Source of the DNA: Scenedesmus sp. PABB004
Taxonomy: Eukaryota
Assembly: GCA_014905635.1 (NCBI GenBank)
Contig: JABVCE010000004.1
Span: 124,001-188,000, forward strand
DNA length: 64,000 nucleotides
Direction: 5' to 3'
The notes beneath the pieces were generated by a model. That model was not told the DNA's origin, made no database searches, and saw only the letters and a program-made list of their open reading frames with translations. Positions 12,112 to 18,323 of this stretch are shown here, in pieces. Position numbers and translations under genes: made by a program. Numbering within the stretch: the first letter of the stretch is position 1; every line of letters starts with the position of its first letter.

Positions 12112-13090
12112 AGCGGTGCGGGCGCTGGTCTCGGCTGGCCTGGCTGGGCGGCGTGGGGGCTGTGCGGCGGCGCGGGCGACGAGGGGGGTGGCGGGCGTCC
12201 GGCTGGGCGGCGCCTTATGTGCGCAGCGCGAGCCGAGGGGCGGGTAGTAGTTTTAACCCTCCGTTCTCCTACTCTGCCGCTCCGCATTCAGCCGCCCTGC
12301 CGCCCCGCGGCCGCGCCGAGTCGGCGCGCGCGAGCGGTGCAGGCCCGTGGGCGGCGCGCCGGCGCGGCGCGCGCGTGCCGTGGCGGGGCGGGGGGCAGCG
12401 ATGCCGCGGGAGCTGCGTCGAGGGGCTGTCGGCACGCTGAGCCGTGGGCCACCGCGCCGTGCGTGCGTGTGACACGAGCTGGCGCACCGGTCCCACGCCC
12501 AGGCGCTGCGCGGGGCTGGTCAAGCGCCGCCGCGCGCGGGGTGTGCTGTGCGCGCCGGCGGGCAGGCCTGTGCGCTCGCGACCTCGCCCCCGGCCGCGCG
12601 CCCGCTCGCGGCGGCGGCGCTCGGGGTGCCGCCCTGCGGGGGACCGCCGCCGCCAGCGCTGCCAGAGGCGGCGCGCGGCGGCGCTGGTGGGCGCACGCTC
12701 GGAGCTCCGCGCCACACAGTCGGCGCCTCGCACAAGGCAGGCGCCGCGGCGCGAAAGTTGTTACGCCCTTGGCGCGCACCTACTACGCCGCGCGATCGGG
12801 CGGCCGCGCCCGGCCCCGCCCCGCACACTCCCGTCGCCCGCCCACGCCCAGCTCGCTGACGCGCCGTCGCCCGCGCCACCCAGGTGCGGCTCCGCGGGGC
12901 GCGGTCCCCCGCCAAGGGGCGCGGCGCCTGCTTGCTGCTGCGGCAGCGACGGCCGCGCGCGGGCCGCGGGGAGCTGCGCCGTCGTTCTCGCAGTGCACCG
13001 CGGCGCGCCGGGGGGCGGCAGGGCGCCGGGAGCGCCCGGCACCGCCGGTTTCTCCAACACCATCTCGCGCACCGCCGCGCGCTGCGCAGG
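12112..13090 (+). repeat. Left copy of ~980-bp inverted repeat; upstream/promoter region of LCIA
   Basis: Reverse complement of ~15249-16230, e.g. 12241 cgggtagtagttttaaccctccgttctcctactc vs 16070-16103 gagtaggagaacggagggttaaaactactacccg. Ends 28 nt before the LCIA ATG. Confidence 0.95.
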
Positions 13091-13118
13091 CCCGCGTCCA
13101 CAGCAGCAGAGGCCCGCC

Positions 13119-14807
13119 ATGCAGACCGCCACCATGAAGGCGTCCGCCGTGCGCGGCGTGGCGCTGCGCCGCGCGCCGCTCGCGCGCCGCGCGCCGATGC
13201 TGGTCCGCGCCCAGGCCGGTGAGCGAGCGTGGGGCCCGGGAGCGCGCGGCGGGGCGGCGAGGGCTGGCGGGCATCCGCTGGGGAGCCATTCGCGGCCGGC
13301 GCGCAGCAGCCCGCGGCCGGCGCCCTTTGCCGCCGCTGCTGCCGCGCACGCCGACCGCGCCCGCCAACTGCGCCGCGCCTCGCCCGCGCCGCCGCGCGCC
13401 CGCGCCGCAGTGTCGCTGGGCCAGACCACGGTGACCACCACCGCCTCCAACGGCAACGGCGCGGCGCAGCCGATCACGGTCGACGTGAACGTGCCGCAGC
13501 CCGCGGCGGAGCTCATGTCGCCGCCCGAGGCGTACCAGTACGTCGCCAAGGCGGGCGTCAAGTGCGCGGAGATGACGCCGTTCAAGACCTTCGTCATGGC
13601 CCTCTACGCCGGCGCCTACATCGCCTTTGGCGGCTTCCTCGGCCTCACCGTCGTCAACGGCTGCCCCGGTGCGCCGCGCCGCGCGCCCCGCGCCGCCGGC
13701 GCCCGCGCGCGCGCGCCTGCCTGCGCGCGCACGCCTGCCTGCGCCCGCGCCCGCGCGGCGCCTGCGCTCACGCCCGCGCGTGCACACACTGCAGGCATCG
13801 TCGCGGCCAACCCCGGGCTCGCGAAGCTGCTGTTCGCGCTCGTCTTCCCCGTCGGCCTGACCATGAACACGCTGCACGGCACCGAGCTCTTCACCGGCAA
13901 CACCATGAAGCTCCCCGCCGCCATCTACGAGGGCAAGGCCAACATGGGCGGCCTGATCAAGAACTGGTTCTGGTCCTACTCGGGTGCGCGGCGCGGCGCG
14001 GCGCGGCGCCCGCCGGGCGGGGGCGCGCCCGCATGCGCGCGCCGCGGCGCGCGCGGCCACAGCCCGCGCGGGCAGGGAGGCCGCGGCGCGCGAGCAGGGA
14101 GCCCCCGCGCCCGTGCCCGCCCGCGCCCGCGCTCACACGCGCCCGCACGCGCCCGCACGCGCCCGCACGCGCGCCCCGCGGTCAGGCAACTTTGTGGGCA
14201 GCCTGCTGTTTGTGATGGCCGTCGTCGCGAGCGGCGTGCTCGCGTCCGGCAGCGCGCCGTACGCCATCAAGACCGCGATGGCCAAGGCCTCCCTGCCCTG
14301 GGGCCAGGTGCGTGCGCGCGCGCGCGTGTGGAGGGGGCACGGGCAGCAGGCCGCCGCTGCCGCAGCGCGCGCGCCGCGCGCCGCGCGCCGCGCGCCGCAC
14401 GCCGCGCCTGCCCGCCGACGCCCCGCCTCCCCCCTGCCCGCCCTGCCCTGCCCCGCCTGGCTTCCCCGCAGGCGTTCATCCGCGCCGTGATGGCCAACTG
14501 GCTCGTGTGCGTCGCGGTGTGGAACAGCGGCGCCGCGAGCAGCCTGCCCGGCAAGGTCCTCGGCATCTGGCCCCCGATCGCCGCGTTTGTCGCGATCGGG
14601 CTCGAGCACAGCGTGGCCAACATGTTCCTCATCCCCCTCGGCATCGCGCTCGGCGCGGACATCACCTTTGGCCACTTCATTACCGCCAACCTCATCCCCG
14701 TCACGCTCGGCAACATCGTGGGCGGCCTCGTGTTCATGGGCACCGCGAGCTCGCTCTTCTACGGCAAGCTCGGCGGCAAGAAGGCGCCCGCGCCCGCGGC
14801 CGCGTAA
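13119..14807 (+). CDS. LCIA: Formate/nitrite transporter family (NAR1) chloroplast-envelope protein, LCIA/NAR1.2-like Ci transporter, 5 exons
   Basis: Exons 13119-13218, 13411-13668, 13795-13983, 14186-14307 and 14472-14807. Transit peptide (MQT..LVRAQA); FNT motifs AGAYIAFG, ANPGLAKLLFALVFPVGL, ELFTGN, GNFVG, NWLVC, FVAIGLEHSVANMF, PVTLGNIVGG. Closely resembles Chlamydomonas LCIA as I recall it. Confidence 0.9.
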   Translation: MQTATMKASAVRGVALRRAPLARRAPMLVRAQAGERAWGPGARGGAARAGGHPLGSHSRPARSSPRPAPFAAAAAAHADRARQLRRASPAPPRARAAVSLGQTTVTTTASNGNGAAQPITVDVNVPQPAAELMSPPEAYQYVAKAGVKCAEMTPFKTFVMALYAGAYIAFGGFLGLTVVNGCPGAPRRAPRAAGARARAPACARTPACARARAAPALTPARAHTAGIVAANPGLAKLLFALVFPVGLTMNTLHGTELFTGNTMKLPAAIYEGKANMGGLIKNWFWSYSGARRGAARRPPGGGAPACARRGARGHSPRGQGGRGARAGSPRARARPRPRSHAPARARTRPHARPAVRQLCGQPAVCDGRRRERRARVRQRAVRHQDRDGQGLPALGPGACARARVEGARAAGRRCRSARAARRAPRAARRACPPTPRLPPARPALPRLASPQAFIRAVMANWLVCVAVWNSGAASSLPGKVLGIWPPIAAFVAIGLEHSVANMFLIPLGIALGADITFGHFITANLIPVTLGNIVGGLVFMGTASSLFYGKLGGKKAPAPAAA

Positions 14808-16230: not shown

Positions 16231-16270
16231 CTCCCCGCTCCTTGCAGCAGCCCCGCGCAGCCGTCCCACC

Positions 16271-18323
16271 ATGCCCCTCCTCGCCCGCCGCGCCATGGGC
16301 GCGCAGACCAAGCACGCCTGCGGTGGTGCCTGCGGCGCCTGCAGCGGAGTGGTGAGGGCCGACCCACCAACGCGGCACGGGCGCTGCGCGCTCAATTCGC
16401 CGCGTCCGGGGCGCGCGGGGACGCATTTACATGTTCCTGTCGCTGCCCGATCGGCGCGGGAGGCGCGCGCGGCCGCGCGGGGCCGCGCGGGGCCGCAGAT
16501 ATCACGCGCGCTTGGCCGCCCCGCCCGCGCGCGCCCCGGCCCCCCGGCGCCCCGCCGCACCACCTGGCGCGTGTGGCGCGTGGTCCGGCGCCCCCAGCGC
16601 CGCGTTGGCAGGCCGCTGACGCCCACCGCCGCCCGCCCGCCGCCCGCAGCGCGCCGTGCCGCGCAAGGCCGTCGTCGTGCGCGCTGCGAGCTACCACTCC
16701 AACTGGCGCACACAGAGCGTGGCCGTGGTGGACAACACCAACGGCAACGGCAGCAGCAACGGCACGTACAGCCCCGTGCCGCGCCAGATGGCGCAGGCCG
16801 CGCGCCCGCTGCCGGCGCAGCCCGCGCCGCGCATCGCGCCGGGCGACCTCAACTCGCGCTATGCGACCATCCTCAAGCACTTCCCGTCCGCGCTCGGCGT
16901 CGACGACTTCATCGCGCGCGTGGAGGTCGCGCTCTGCTACTTTGGCTTCACCGGCGACAACACCATCGGTGAGGCCCCGCGCGCGCATGCGCGCACGCGC
17001 GCGCGCCGGCCCCGACGCGCCCCCGCCGCGCCCCCGCCGCGACCCGCGCCCCGGCGGGCCCCGCCCCCGCCCGTGTGCCGCGCCTGACGCCGCCCGCCGC
17101 CCGCCCGTGCCCGCGCCGCGCCGCGCAGCCGTGACCAACCTGTGCCGCGACGAGGTGACAGCGGTGCTGAAGGACAAGATCGAGGCGGTCTGGGGCGGCA
17201 GCTTCAACGTCAACGGCCTCGGCGGCGTGCTCACCTGCGGCGTCACCGGGTTCAAGGCCGGCCTCAGCCACGCGCCCGTCTGCGCGGTGCGCGCCCGCGC
17301 GCGCGCCCGCCGCGCACGCGCCGCGCGCCCGCCGCGCCGCGCGCCCGCGCGCCCGCCCGCGCTCCCCGCCCGCCGCGCCCTCCCCGCTGACTCCCCTCCC
17401 CTCCCCTCCCGCTCCCTCCCCCCGTCAGGGCACGGGGCGCGAGCGCTATGTGTTCTTCAGCTTCCCCCACATCGCGATCGACGACCACGGCGAGGTCGGC
17501 GCGATCGCGCGCCCCGGTCGCGACAAGAAGTCGTGCGCGTGCGGCGCGCTCGCAAAGTGCCTGAACGAGGTCAAGGCCGACGGCCTGGGCCGCAACTTTG
17601 CCATCCCCGGCGTGCACGACGACGAGGACCCGGAGTACAGCATCCTCAAGGCCCGCATGATCAACAAGATGAAGGACGAGGGCCTCGCCATCGGCTCCGA
17701 CTTTGGCCTCGCCGACATCACCAAGGTCGCGGAGCGCACCATCAGCGCGGTGAGGCCCCGCGCGGCGCGGCGCGCGGGCCCCGGCGGCGGTGGCGGCGGC
17801 GGCGGCGGCGCGCGCGCCTGGGCGGGCGCGCCGCGCGCGCTGCCGCGCGCCGCACGCGTCCCATCGCGCGCGCTCACGCGCGCCCCCGCCCCCGTGCCCG
17901 GTCGCGCCGCAGGACCTGGAGAAGCTCATCGGCAAGGCGGTCGACCCGACCAAGGCCGACTACGCGGTCGTGACGGGCGTGCAGATCCACAACTGGGCGC
18001 AGGTGCTCGACGACCCCAACGCGTACAGCATGGAGTTTGTCGCGCCCGCGAGCGTCTACGCCGTCGTCAACGGCGTCGCGACGCACCTCGACCTCGCCCA
18101 GATCCCCCAGGTCACGCCGCGCATGCTCAACCTGCTCGCCGCGAGCAGCATGAGCGGCGGCAGCGGGAGCAGCATGGACCTCGACGCCGCCGCGAGCTTC
18201 ACGAGCGGCACGAGCAGCACGCTGCAGCAGATCCCCAGCAGCCAGCTCTTCCAGCGCCTCGTGAGCCGGCCCAAGGCCTCGTTCCTCACCGCCGGCAACG
18301 GCGGCGGCGCGTCCGACCACTGA
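16271..18323 (+). CDS. LCIB: LCIB/LCIC-family (theta-carbonic-anhydrase-like) low-CO2-inducible chloroplast protein, 5 exons
   Basis: Exons 16271-16351, 16650-16968, 17129-17286, 17429-17749 and 17913-18323: FPSALGVDDFIARVEVALCYFGFTGDNTIAVTNLCRDE..GLGGVLTCGVTGFKAGLSHAP..RERYVFFSFPHIAI..SCACGAL..ADYAVVTGVQIHNW. The Cys/His/Cys zinc ligands are present; Cys-containing transit peptide. LCIB vs LCIC paralog identity is not certain. Confidence 0.9.

What the first reader, a model, noticed from the sequence alone, without database searches (positions are those of the whole stretch)
12112..18323. LCIA-LCIB carbon-concentrating cassette built on a duplicated, inverted ~1-kb shared upstream element (candidate bidirectional promoter and invertible LCIA cassette)
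Seen: LCIA (13119-14807) lies between ~980-bp inverted repeats (12112-13090 and 15249-16230). One end of the element abuts the LCIA ATG (28 nt away). In the reversed copy, the opposite end abuts the LCIB-like ATG (~40 nt away). The copies differ by scattered substitutions and indels. Known: LCIA and LCIB are co-induced low-CO2 CCM components, unlinked in Chlamydomonas, where other CCM genes (CCP1/LCIE, CCP2/LCID) sit in linked, duplicated pairs. Inference: the element is a bidirectional low-CO2 promoter from an ancestral head-to-head LCIA<-P->LCIB pair. Recombination between the repeats would flip 13091-15248 and restore that head-to-head layout while keeping LCIA behind the same promoter end. 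The 'unused' ends could also fire antisense into the LCIA 3' end.
Basis: partly seen in the sequence, partly recalled or inferred. Interest (0 to 1): 0.86.

Follow-up and report, generated by a model that had tools for sequence, protein, structure and literature searches.

The report
Duplicated promoter splitting LCIA-LCIB gene pair
In a very GC-rich green alga, the roughly 1-kb stretch between two carbon-concentrating genes (LCIA-like and LCIB-like) was copied in mirror image, most likely when LCIA was flipped, so each gene kept its own copy of what was probably one shared two-way promoter.

Summary
A ~970-985-bp inverted repeat (12112/12127-13096 and 15244-16217/16230, 95.4% identical) flanks a five-exon FNT/LCIA-like gene. 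Opposite ends of the element lie 23-28 nt before the LCIA ATG and 41-54 nt before the ATG of a five-exon LCIB-like gene. Both start codons are supported by homologues. The element shows no coding signal, Pfam, Rfam or tRNA match, and has only two copies in the window.

New evidence comes from 79 metagenome loci with LCIB homologues. Two of them (L040, L041; GC 74-76%) also carry an FNT gene, head-to-head with the LCIB-like gene across a single 536-691-bp spacer without repeats. An SLX1-like neighbour is shared with the window.

The best reading is a micro-inversion of LCIA out of an ancestral divergent LCIA/LCIB pair. The whole shared 5' region was duplicated at the breakpoints, as in the staggered-break model known from Drosophila. 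Differences between the copies are mosaic (a 279-bp perfect tract; half of all differences in 92 bp). This suggests gene conversion or a local complex mutation.

Bidirectional, CO2-responsive promoter activity is plausible but untested, because no RNA data were available. Active flip-flop and antisense firing have no support. Independent confirmation of the assembly is limited to one junction.

The parts
12127..13096 (+). Element copy A (megablast extent 12112-13096). Its right (R) end lies 23 nt before the LCIA ATG. Its left (L) end faces the 3' side of the upstream Cys-rich gene.
15244..16217 (-). Element copy B, the reverse complement of copy A (megablast extent 15244-16230). Its L end lies 41-54 nt before the LCIB-like ATG. 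Its R end faces the LCIA 3' flank.
   Evidence: The L-end/LCIB junction is bridged by an independent 416-nt metagenome contig (X1 record 5, 16018-16432).
13119..14807 (+). LCIA-like formate/nitrite-transporter gene. CDS exons: 13119-13218, 13411-13668, 13795-13983, 14186-14307, 14472-14807.
   Evidence: Pfam PF01226 on four exons. Homologues up to 93% identical, 58% to C. reinhardtii Cre06.g309000 over the last exon. tblastn. GT-AG model. Tree.
16271..18323 (+). LCIB-family (LCIB_C_CA) gene. CDS exons: 16271-16351, 16650-16968, 17129-17286, 17429-17749, 17913-18323.
   Evidence: Pfam PF18599 on three exons. Homologues 88-90% identical (P0123, P0220). tblastn. GT-AG model. Trees.
13097..15243 (.). 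Unique segment enclosed by the repeat: a 22-nt leader, the LCIA gene and 436 nt of 3' flank. This is the segment inferred to have been inverted relative to LCIB.
   Evidence: Geometry. FNT has the opposite orientation in L040/L041.
12664..12755 (.). Divergent central patch (copy B 15583-15680). It holds 21 of the 42 differences between the copies in 92 bp.
12212..12290 (.). Less GC-rich island (60-62% GC) inside a 279-bp tract that is identical in both copies. It contains TTTTAAC and one CTACTAC. In copy B (16058-16132) it lies 140-210 nt upstream of the LCIB-like ATG. It is a candidate core promoter or leader for LCIB (inference).
12780..12786 (+). Second CTACTAC word, reading towards LCIA, 333 nt before its ATG (copy B: 15552-15558 on the minus strand). 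The two words in each copy point outwards towards the two genes.
   Evidence: 7 matches in the window against 0.15 expected; 4 of the 7 are in the two copies.
12016..12044 (.). (GT)n microsatellite about 80 nt outside the left junction of copy A.
   Evidence: sequence read directly
2560..5150 (-). SLX1-like gene (GIY-YIG-like exons by eye; PHD/RING finger by Pfam). Used as the synteny anchor with L025, L040 and L041.

Best explanation
The element is the complete 5' intergenic region (promoter plus most of both 5' leaders) of an ancestral divergently transcribed LCIA/LCIB gene pair.

In this lineage a ~3-kb segment (spacer plus LCIA) was inverted. One breakpoint was staggered across the whole spacer, so fill-in and end-joining left the spacer on both sides of LCIA in inverted orientation: U | P(L->R) LCIA-> | P(R->L) LCIB->.

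As a result LCIA is still driven from the R end (copy A) and LCIB from the L end (copy B). The other end of each copy is now redundant. The copies have since been kept largely identical, probably by gene conversion, except for a 92-bp central patch.

Shown: the repeat, its boundaries next to both ATGs, the lack of any gene in it, and the head-to-head layout in two related contigs. Inferred: the polarity (head-to-head is ancestral), the staggered-break mechanism, gene conversion, bidirectional promoter activity, and CO2 responsiveness. The last point rests only on what is known of LCIA and LCIB in Chlamydomonas.
For: (1) The inverted repeat is 95.4% identical, with sharp ends and no homology beyond them.

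(2) Opposite ends of the element abut two homology-verified ATGs at 23-28 and 41-54 nt. The core promoters and most of the leaders of both genes must therefore lie in the element, used in opposite directions.

(3) The element has no coding-type GC3 signal between 11060 and 13388 or between 14804 and 16638. It gave 0 Rfam hits, 0 tRNAs and 0 credible Pfam hits in 12 ORFs. There are only 2 copies in 64 kb.

(4) Of 79 metagenome loci with LCIB homologues, 2 carry an FNT gene. Both have it upstream on the opposite strand. In L040 the FNT ATG is at 9069(-) and the LCIB-like ATG at 9761(+), a 691-bp spacer. In L041 the ATGs are at 4496(-) and 5033(+), a 536-bp spacer. Neither has a long inverted repeat. 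These are the only loci whose LCIB-like gene hits the window's clade best at about 65% identity, and they share the extreme GC content (0.74, 0.76).

(5) The neighbourhood is the same: an SLX1-like gene lies next to the LCIB-like gene in 3 of 79 loci (L025, L040, L041) and 7 kb from LCIA in the window.

(6) The L041 FNT N-terminus MLATLKAS resembles the window's MQTATMKAS. The FNTs of L040 and L041 join the window's clade, though with weak support of 76.

(7) There is a published precedent. Of 29 Drosophila inversions, 17 are flanked by inverted duplications of ancestrally unique sequence, median 321 bp and up to about 1.9 kb, explained by staggered breaks (passages of PMC1885836).

(8) The divergence between copies is mosaic. 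The longest perfect tract is 279 bp, reached in only 3 of 100,000 random placements, and 21 of 42 differences fall in 92 bp.
Against: There is no expression data of any kind, so no TSS, strand or CO2 response is known.

The spacers of L040 and L041 show no alignable similarity to the element (best words are 14 nt or shorter, E at least 0.13). They are also far less GC-rich (0.63-0.65 against 0.81-0.82). Homology of the spacer itself is therefore not shown.

L040 and L041 are sister sequences (100*), so they count as one independent lineage. Their genes are intronless, sit on long branches (LCIB-like branch 2.32) and have a different LCIB N-terminus. Orthology is therefore likely but not proven.

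The SLX1-like gene sits on the other side in the window. More than one rearrangement has occurred, and a single inversion does not convert one layout into the other.

The two novel junctions (about 12127 and 15244) have no independent read support.

Genome-wide copy number could not be checked, because no genome is held.
Confidence: 0.6

Rival explanations
1. Promoter capture without a head-to-head ancestor. LCIA and LCIB were already in tandem, and the LCIA upstream region was later copied, in inverted orientation, in front of LCIB. Co-regulation would then come from orientation-independent enhancers.
For: The present layout is tandem. The spacers of L040 and L041 are not alignable with the element. 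The region has been rearranged more than once.
Against: It does not explain why the copy ends 23 nt from the LCIA ATG and 41-54 nt from the LCIB ATG, which together span a complete ATG-to-ATG spacer. It also does not explain why the only FNT-bearing relatives (2 of 79 loci) are head-to-head.
Confidence: 0.12
2. Live flip-flop. Homologous recombination between the two ~1-kb arms still inverts 13097-15243, so both isomers (tandem, and head-to-head plus a spare copy) coexist in populations or cells. This is compatible with the best explanation for the origin of the repeat.
For: The arms are long and share perfect tracts up to 279 bp. The mosaic identity pattern suggests exchange between the copies. 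Either orientation keeps LCIA next to an R end.
Against: There is no read, contig or second assembly in the other orientation; the only runs found were low-depth metagenome contigs with no bridging piece. No recombinase was seen among the neighbouring genes by eye (not scanned exhaustively). The copies could also be homogenised by conversion without crossover.
Confidence: 0.12
3. Assembly artefact: a fold-back chimera, or two haplotypes stitched together, creates a duplication that does not exist.
For: Junctions 12127 and 15244 lack independent support. No genome or reads of the source strain were available.
Against: The copies differ by 45 substitutions and 4 indel events. They are embedded in different unique flanks with intact genes. 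A 416-nt contig from an independent run, 5 differences, bridges the copy B/LCIB junction.
Confidence: 0.05
4. The element is a mobile or dispersed repeat that happened to land twice.
For: Genome-wide copy number is untested.
Against: There are only 2 copies in 64 kb. No terminal inverted repeats or target-site duplications were seen at the ends (by eye). There are no transposase or other Pfam hits. Both ends sit at start codons.
Confidence: 0.03

Closest known systems
Inversion-associated inverted duplications (staggered-break model; Ranz et al. 2007, PMC1885836, passages read)
   Same: An inverted segment is flanked by inverted copies of sequence that is single-copy in relatives. The size (~1 kb) lies within the reported range (46 bp to about 1.9 kb). 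The duplicated sequence is non-repetitive.
   Different: The inverted segment here is tiny (one gene). What was duplicated is exactly a whole shared promoter region, so both genes stay equipped. The organism is a green alga. The ancestral state is inferred from distant contigs, not from a sister species.
Bidirectional promoters of divergent co-regulated gene pairs
   Same: In L040 and L041 the two ATGs are 536-691 bp apart on opposite strands. In the window, opposite ends of one element abut the two ATGs.
   Different: In the window the pair is no longer divergent, and each gene has its own copy. No transcription data exist.
Linked CCM genes in Chlamydomonas and volvocine algae: LCIC Cre06.g307500 and LCIA Cre06.g309000. 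The CCP1/CCP2-LCID/LCIE-CAH1/CAH2 cluster on chromosome 4 is recalled, not checked here.
   Same: An LCIB-family gene and LCIA lie on the same chromosome. In Pleodorina the locus tags are 18 apart.
   Different: Those genes are many genes apart, not adjacent, and no shared promoter is known. Searches for LCIA+LCIB with 'head-to-head', 'bidirectional promoter' or 'divergently' found 0 papers.
Nitrate-assimilation gene cluster of Chlamydomonas containing the FNT paralogue NAR1.1 (PMC4620153: search listing and start of abstract only; cluster content recalled)
   Same: An FNT-family transporter is physically clustered with functionally related, co-regulated genes.
   Different: A different pathway and different partners. 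A metagenome protein fusing nitrite reductase and FNT (P0062) belongs to that other kind.
Repeat-mediated flip-flop (plastid inverted repeats) and bacterial invertible promoters (recalled)
   Same: Inverted repeats bound a segment whose inversion would change the neighbourhood of a gene.
   Different: No recombinase is evident and there is no evidence for two isomers. Here inversion would not switch LCIA off, because both inner ends are the same promoter end.

Membership tests
LCIA / NAR1.2-type formate-nitrite transporter | FNT fold (Pfam PF01226) over the whole protein | tested here: met
   Four exons hit profile positions 1-45, 48-107, 108-148 and 149-237 of 240.
LCIA / NAR1.2-type formate-nitrite transporter | Groups with C. 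reinhardtii LCIA rather than with other FNTs | tested here: inconclusive
   In the 35-row tree, a 100* branch separates 15 other FNTs (trebouxiophyte, ulvophyte, prasinophyte, red and brown lineages, nitrite-reductase fusion) from the 20 rows that hold the window's clade, L040/L041 and the CrLCIA clade. The other Chlamydomonas NAR1 paralogues were not in the set.
LCIA / NAR1.2-type formate-nitrite transporter | Low-CO2 induction and chloroplast-envelope location | not testable with these tools
   No RNA run listed.
LCIB/LCIC family (LCIB_C_CA, beta-CA-like) | Pfam PF18599 domain | tested here: met
   Exons hit profile positions 28-77, 80-177 and 179-222 of 223. 88% identity to P0123.
LCIB/LCIC family (LCIB_C_CA, beta-CA-like) | Zinc-binding Cys/His/Cys residues | not tested
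   Conserved C, H and C columns exist in alignment A3, but they were not mapped to the published site.
Bidirectional promoter | Two divergently oriented genes with start sites less than about 1 kb apart | tested here: met
   Met in relatives L040 (691 bp ATG to ATG) and L041 (536 bp). In the window it is met only virtually, as the two ends of one element.
Bidirectional promoter | Transcription initiates in both directions from the shared region | not testable with these tools
   No RNA data.
Inversion with breakpoint duplication (staggered breaks) | Inverted duplicates flank a segment that is inverted relative to relatives | tested here: met
   (repeat). (FNT orientation opposite to LCIB in L040 and L041).
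Inversion with breakpoint duplication (staggered breaks) | The duplicated sequence is single-copy in the uninverted state | tested here: met
   No inverted repeat of 60 nt or more other than low-complexity matches around the pair in L040 and L041. Caveat: the spacers are not alignable to the element.
Inversion with breakpoint duplication (staggered breaks) | The duplicate is not a dispersed repeat | tested here: inconclusive
   2 copies in the 64-kb window. The whole genome is not held.
Programmed invertible element / flip-flop | Both orientations present in DNA of one strain or population | not testable with these tools
   Only low-depth metagenome contigs were available, and none bridges 12127 or 15244.
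Programmed invertible element / flip-flop | Dedicated site-specific recombinase nearby | not tested
   Neighbouring exons were read by eye, and only a few were scanned against Pfam.

The most novel reading that the evidence does not exclude
The ~1-kb element is a compact, CO2-responsive bidirectional promoter of a conserved LCIA/LCIB 'minimal CCM module'. The repeat-flanked LCIA cassette still flips by homologous recombination, so tandem and head-to-head isomers coexist while gene conversion keeps both promoter copies alike. In addition, LCIA transcripts that run from copy A's R end into copy B's R end would carry complementary 5' and 3' termini (92 nt, 93% complementary, I3). This would give a built-in double-stranded RNA or antisense control of LCIA.
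Probability: 0.1. Interest if true: 0.75.

Novelty: new member of a known kind. Interest (0 to 1): 0.5.

Why it matters
LCIA (a bicarbonate channel of the chloroplast envelope) and LCIB (a CO2-recapturing carbonic anhydrase) are two core parts of the algal CO2-concentrating mechanism that people try to move into crops.

A lineage in which the two genes sit head-to-head on a 0.5-1-kb spacer points to selection for co-regulation. It also offers a natural, compact two-way promoter candidate.

The present genome is a natural experiment. The spacer was duplicated whole when the pair was split, which suggests that each gene needs (nearly) all of it.

It is also a clean non-animal example of an inversion that duplicated its breakpoint sequence. 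I found no paper reporting LCIA-LCIB adjacency (0 hits; nothing relevant in the listings). Subscription-only papers and supplements were not searched.

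Tried and rejected
- Whole-genome search for further copies: no genome is held for this window.
- RNA evidence: no RNA holder listed.
- Laying the three metagenome runs gave only short, low-depth contigs. 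Most partial matches and all 'joints' had sides of about 21-22 nt in GC-rich low-complexity sequence and were disregarded. No piece bridges the junctions at about 12127 or 15244, so nothing can be said about misassembly or a second orientation.
- The first metagenome scan, with a narrow LCIB alignment, found no relative. The allowed second scan, with a broad alignment, gave the 79 loci.
- Footprinting of the element against the L040 and L041 spacers showed no similarity above chance.
- TGTAA as a poly(A) signal to delimit the LCIA 3' end: only 5 in the window against 3.7 expected, so uninformative.
- Hidden gene in the element: Rfam 0 hits, tRNA 0. Pfam gave 0 hits in 11 of 12 ORFs and one meaningless sub-threshold hit (GPHH, E 0.077) in the ORF that lies mostly outside the element.
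- Substitutions between the copies show no codon periodicity (13/14/18 by position mod 3).
- The first FNT tree contained a wrong-frame translation of the L041 gene. It is void and replaced.
- A single inversion cannot convert the L040 layout into the window layout, because the SLX1-like gene lies on the other side. I did not find a unique series of events.
- Earlier scan notes: nothing for this genome, and only unrelated prokaryotic or viral findings by words.

Full report
**Observation**

The window is about 79% G+C throughout and is eukaryotic, with genes split by GT-AG introns.

- The repeat finder gives colinear inverted arms of 556, 218, 92, 80 and 43 nt.
- MAFFT aligns 12050-13160 with the reverse complement of 15180-16300, with sharp ends of homology.
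- blastn and megablast give 12112/12122-13096 against 16230/16224-15244, 95.4% identity over 985-993 columns.
- Uninterrupted identity begins at 12127/16217.
- No third copy is present in the 64 kb. The whole genome is not held, so genome-wide copy number is unknown.

**The two genes**

Pfam assigns four plus-strand exons between 13419 and 14804 to consecutive parts of the formate/nitrite transporter profile. It assigns three exons between 17131 and 18320 to LCIB_C_CA.

With homologues (sequences), tblastn and a GT-AG search, the models are:

- LCIA-like: 13119-13218, 13411-13668, 13795-13983, 14186-14307, 14472-14807.
- LCIB-like: 16271-16351, 16650-16968, 17129-17286, 17429-17749, 17913-18323.

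Both start codons are supported by N-terminal similarity to full-length relatives. MQTATMKAS matches MQTSTLKAS of P0006. MPLLARRAMGAQTKHACGGACGAC matches MALKMKAGMKQGTCKGACTCCGA of P0123 and of P0220, which a source names GON30 of Scenedesmus sp. NREL 46B-D3.

The last LCIA exon is 93% identical to the best unnamed hit and 58% to C. reinhardtii Cre06.g309000.

In trees, the FNT lies on the CrLCIA side of a 100* branch that separates 15 other eukaryotic FNTs (35 rows). The LCIB-like protein sits in a starred clade with P0123 and P0220 (54 rows, 37 rows).

**What the element is not**

A codon-position GC scan finds no coding-like stretch from 11060 to 13388 or from 14804 to 16638. The two short first exons fall below its length limit.

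Rfam gives 0 matches at E up to 1 for 11400-16700, and ARAGORN gives 0 tRNAs. Of 12 long ORFs overlapping copy A, none has a credible Pfam match. Differences between the copies show no third-position bias. I saw no terminal inverted repeats or target duplications at the ends.

**Geometry**

Copy B is reversed, and its other end stops 41-54 nt before the LCIB ATG.

The promoters and most of the 5' leaders of both genes must therefore lie within the element, read in opposite directions. The alternative is that both genes have promoters more than 1 kb away.

Homology stops at the boundaries. No relic of LCIB exon 1 lies left of copy A, and no relic of LCIA exon 1 lies left of copy B.

**Relatives**

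A first metagenome scan found nothing. The second returned 79 loci with LCIB homologues. tblastn with LCIA-type proteins hits only 2 of the 79, L040 and L041. By my count from the table, 36 of the 79 have at least 2 kb of upstream flank.

In both loci the FNT gene lies upstream of the LCIB-like gene on the opposite strand:

- L040: FNT ORF 7939-9069(-) and LCIB-like ATG 9761(+), a 691-bp spacer. Pfam confirms both genes.
- L041: FNT ATG 4496(-) and LCIB-like ATG 5033(+), a 536-bp spacer. Pfam confirms the LCIB-like gene; the L041 FNT rests on tblastn and its translated ORF.

These contigs have 74% and 76% G+C. They are the only loci whose LCIB-like gene best matches the window's clade at about 65% identity; L025 does so at 49%. 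Neither has a long inverted repeat around the pair.

An SLX1-like gene (window 2560-5150, minus strand; PHD finger) lies directly downstream of the LCIB-like gene in L040 and L041. Its exons hit 3 of 79 loci: L025, L040 and L041. The neighbourhood is therefore homologous.

The FNT of L041 starts MLATLKAS, like the LCIA-type proteins. In the FNT tree L040+L041 (100*) join the window's clade, with weak support of 76.

Several caveats apply:

- L040 and L041 are sisters, so they count as one lineage.
- Their genes are intronless and long-branched, and the LCIB-like N-terminus differs.
- Their spacers cannot be aligned to the element and are much less GC-rich.
- The SLX1-like gene is on the other side in the window, so more than one rearrangement separates the layouts.

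**Mechanism proposed**

Take the ancestral layout as U | <-LCIA | P | LCIB->. Suppose one break falls beyond the LCIA 3' flank, and a staggered pair of breaks falls at the two ends of P. Fill-in and end-joining then give U | P LCIA-> | P(inverted) LCIB->.

This accounts for all four observed junctions. It also explains why the repeat covers about 94% of the reconstructed ATG-to-ATG spacer: rearrangements that left either gene without its 5' region would be lost.

This is the model proposed for Drosophila. There, 17 of 29 fixed inversions carry inverted duplications of unique sequence at their breakpoints, median 321 bp and up to about 1.9 kb (passages of PMC1885836). A (GT)n tract lies about 80 nt outside the left junction. 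Whether it played a role is unknown.

**After the duplication**

The 42 differences (38 substitutions and 4 indel events in 970 bp) are strongly clustered. 21 lie in 12664-12755, and 7 adjacent mismatches at 12406-12414 look like one event. There is a 279-bp perfect tract, matched in only 3 of 100,000 random placements.

This fits gene conversion between the arms, or a recent origin plus one or two complex mutations. I cannot tell which.

A 416-nt contig from an independent freshwater metagenome run bridges the copy B/LCIB junction (16018-16432) with 5 differences. Two of these lie where the window's two copies are identical to each other. This is compatible with concerted evolution, but it is a single low-depth contig.

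**Function**

Both copies share a less GC-rich island (12212-12290; 60-62% G+C). In copy B it lies 140-210 nt upstream of the LCIB ATG. It contains the window's only two TTTTAAC words.

The word CTACTAC occurs 7 times in the window against 0.15 expected. Four of these are in the two copies, two per copy, pointing outwards towards the two genes. The only CTACTAC in the 16.2 kb of L041 lies 57 nt upstream of its LCIB-like ATG and points towards it. L040 has none in its spacer.

These are leads for cis-elements, not evidence. The shuffling null ignores local composition.

CO2 responsiveness is inferred only from what LCIA and LCIB do in Chlamydomonas. No RNA run was listed.

**The flip-flop idea**

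Recombination between the arms would restore a head-to-head pair and keep LCIA next to an R end. Nothing available shows a second orientation, and such a flip would not switch anything. I treat it as possible but unsupported.

**Comparison with what is known**

LCIB (Cre10.g452800) and LCIA (Cre06.g309000) are on different Chlamydomonas chromosomes. LCIC (Cre06.g307500), however, is on the same chromosome as LCIA. In Pleodorina starrii an LCIB-family gene (PLESTB_000080900) and the LCIA-like gene (PLESTB_000082700) have locus tags 18 apart, and their clusters report the same longest-contig length. In the LCIB tree that Pleodorina gene and the window's gene fall in the same large clade, but they are not resolved as sisters.

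Full-text searches for LCIA and LCIB with 'head-to-head', 'bidirectional promoter' or 'divergently' returned 0 papers. Broader searches listed nothing on adjacency (listings only).

**Verdict**

The evolutionary inference is supported by new comparative evidence. The regulatory and switching claims remain open.

This is a new example of two known kinds: a divergent co-functional gene pair, and an inversion with breakpoint duplication. It is of moderate interest because it concerns two core CCM genes and gives a directly testable promoter.

Noticed in passing
L040:7939-11281 and L041:3300-6466: In these two high-GC algal contigs both the FNT gene and the LCIB-like gene are single uninterrupted ORFs, while the window's genes each have four introns. 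The LCIB-like proteins there start MP..K..DE(F/Y)A.LGPRSRSGRLVWS, carry acidic runs and a low-complexity insert, and are unlike the transit-peptide-like N-terminus in the window.
   Followed up: partly
proteins P0176, P0202, P0226: Annotated proteins of Micractinium, Dunaliella and a metagenome combine a bestrophin domain (PF25539) with LCIB_C_CA. This is either a real fusion or merged models of adjacent genes. Either way it hints at bestrophin-LCIB adjacency, another possible CCM gene pair.
   Followed up: no
protein P0062: An 887-aa metagenome protein joins ferredoxin-nitrite reductase domains to an FNT domain. This is the nitrite-transport type of FNT clustering, distinct from the LCIA type.
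   Followed up: no
window 45577-46029 and 58164-58419: A long tandem array of short-period repeats (self-matches at many offsets, 96-98% identical) lies inside the amino-acid-permease-like gene region. A related inverted stretch (about 80% identical) lies at 58.2-58.4 kb.
   Followed up: no
window 1-170 and 1761-1930: A 170-bp direct repeat, 98.8% identical, at the left edge of the window next to the metallo-beta-lactamase-like gene.
   Followed up: no
window 4205-4482: Tandem repeats of about 64-90 bp period (90-92% identical) lie within the SLX1-like gene region.
   Followed up: no
window 12016-12044: A (GT)n microsatellite of about 14 units lies about 80 nt outside the left boundary of copy A, next to one of the two novel junctions.
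   Followed up: no
window 13005-13096 vs 15244-15335: Both inner ends of the repeat are the LCIA-proximal end. An LCIA transcript that starts in copy A and has a 3' UTR longer than 436 nt would therefore carry complementary 5' and 3' ends (92 nt, 93% complementary, I3).
   Followed up: no
window, whole: Intergenic and promoter regions are as GC-rich as coding sequence (element 81-82% G+C). In L040 and L041 the spacer is about 10 points below the contig average. TGTAA, the Chlamydomonas poly(A) signal as I recall it, is not enriched.
   Followed up: partly
L025:110-3046: A third contig (67% G+C) has an LCIB-like gene followed by the SLX1-like gene on the opposite strand, as in L040 and L041. 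Only 109 nt of upstream flank are held, so an FNT partner cannot be assessed.
   Followed up: partly
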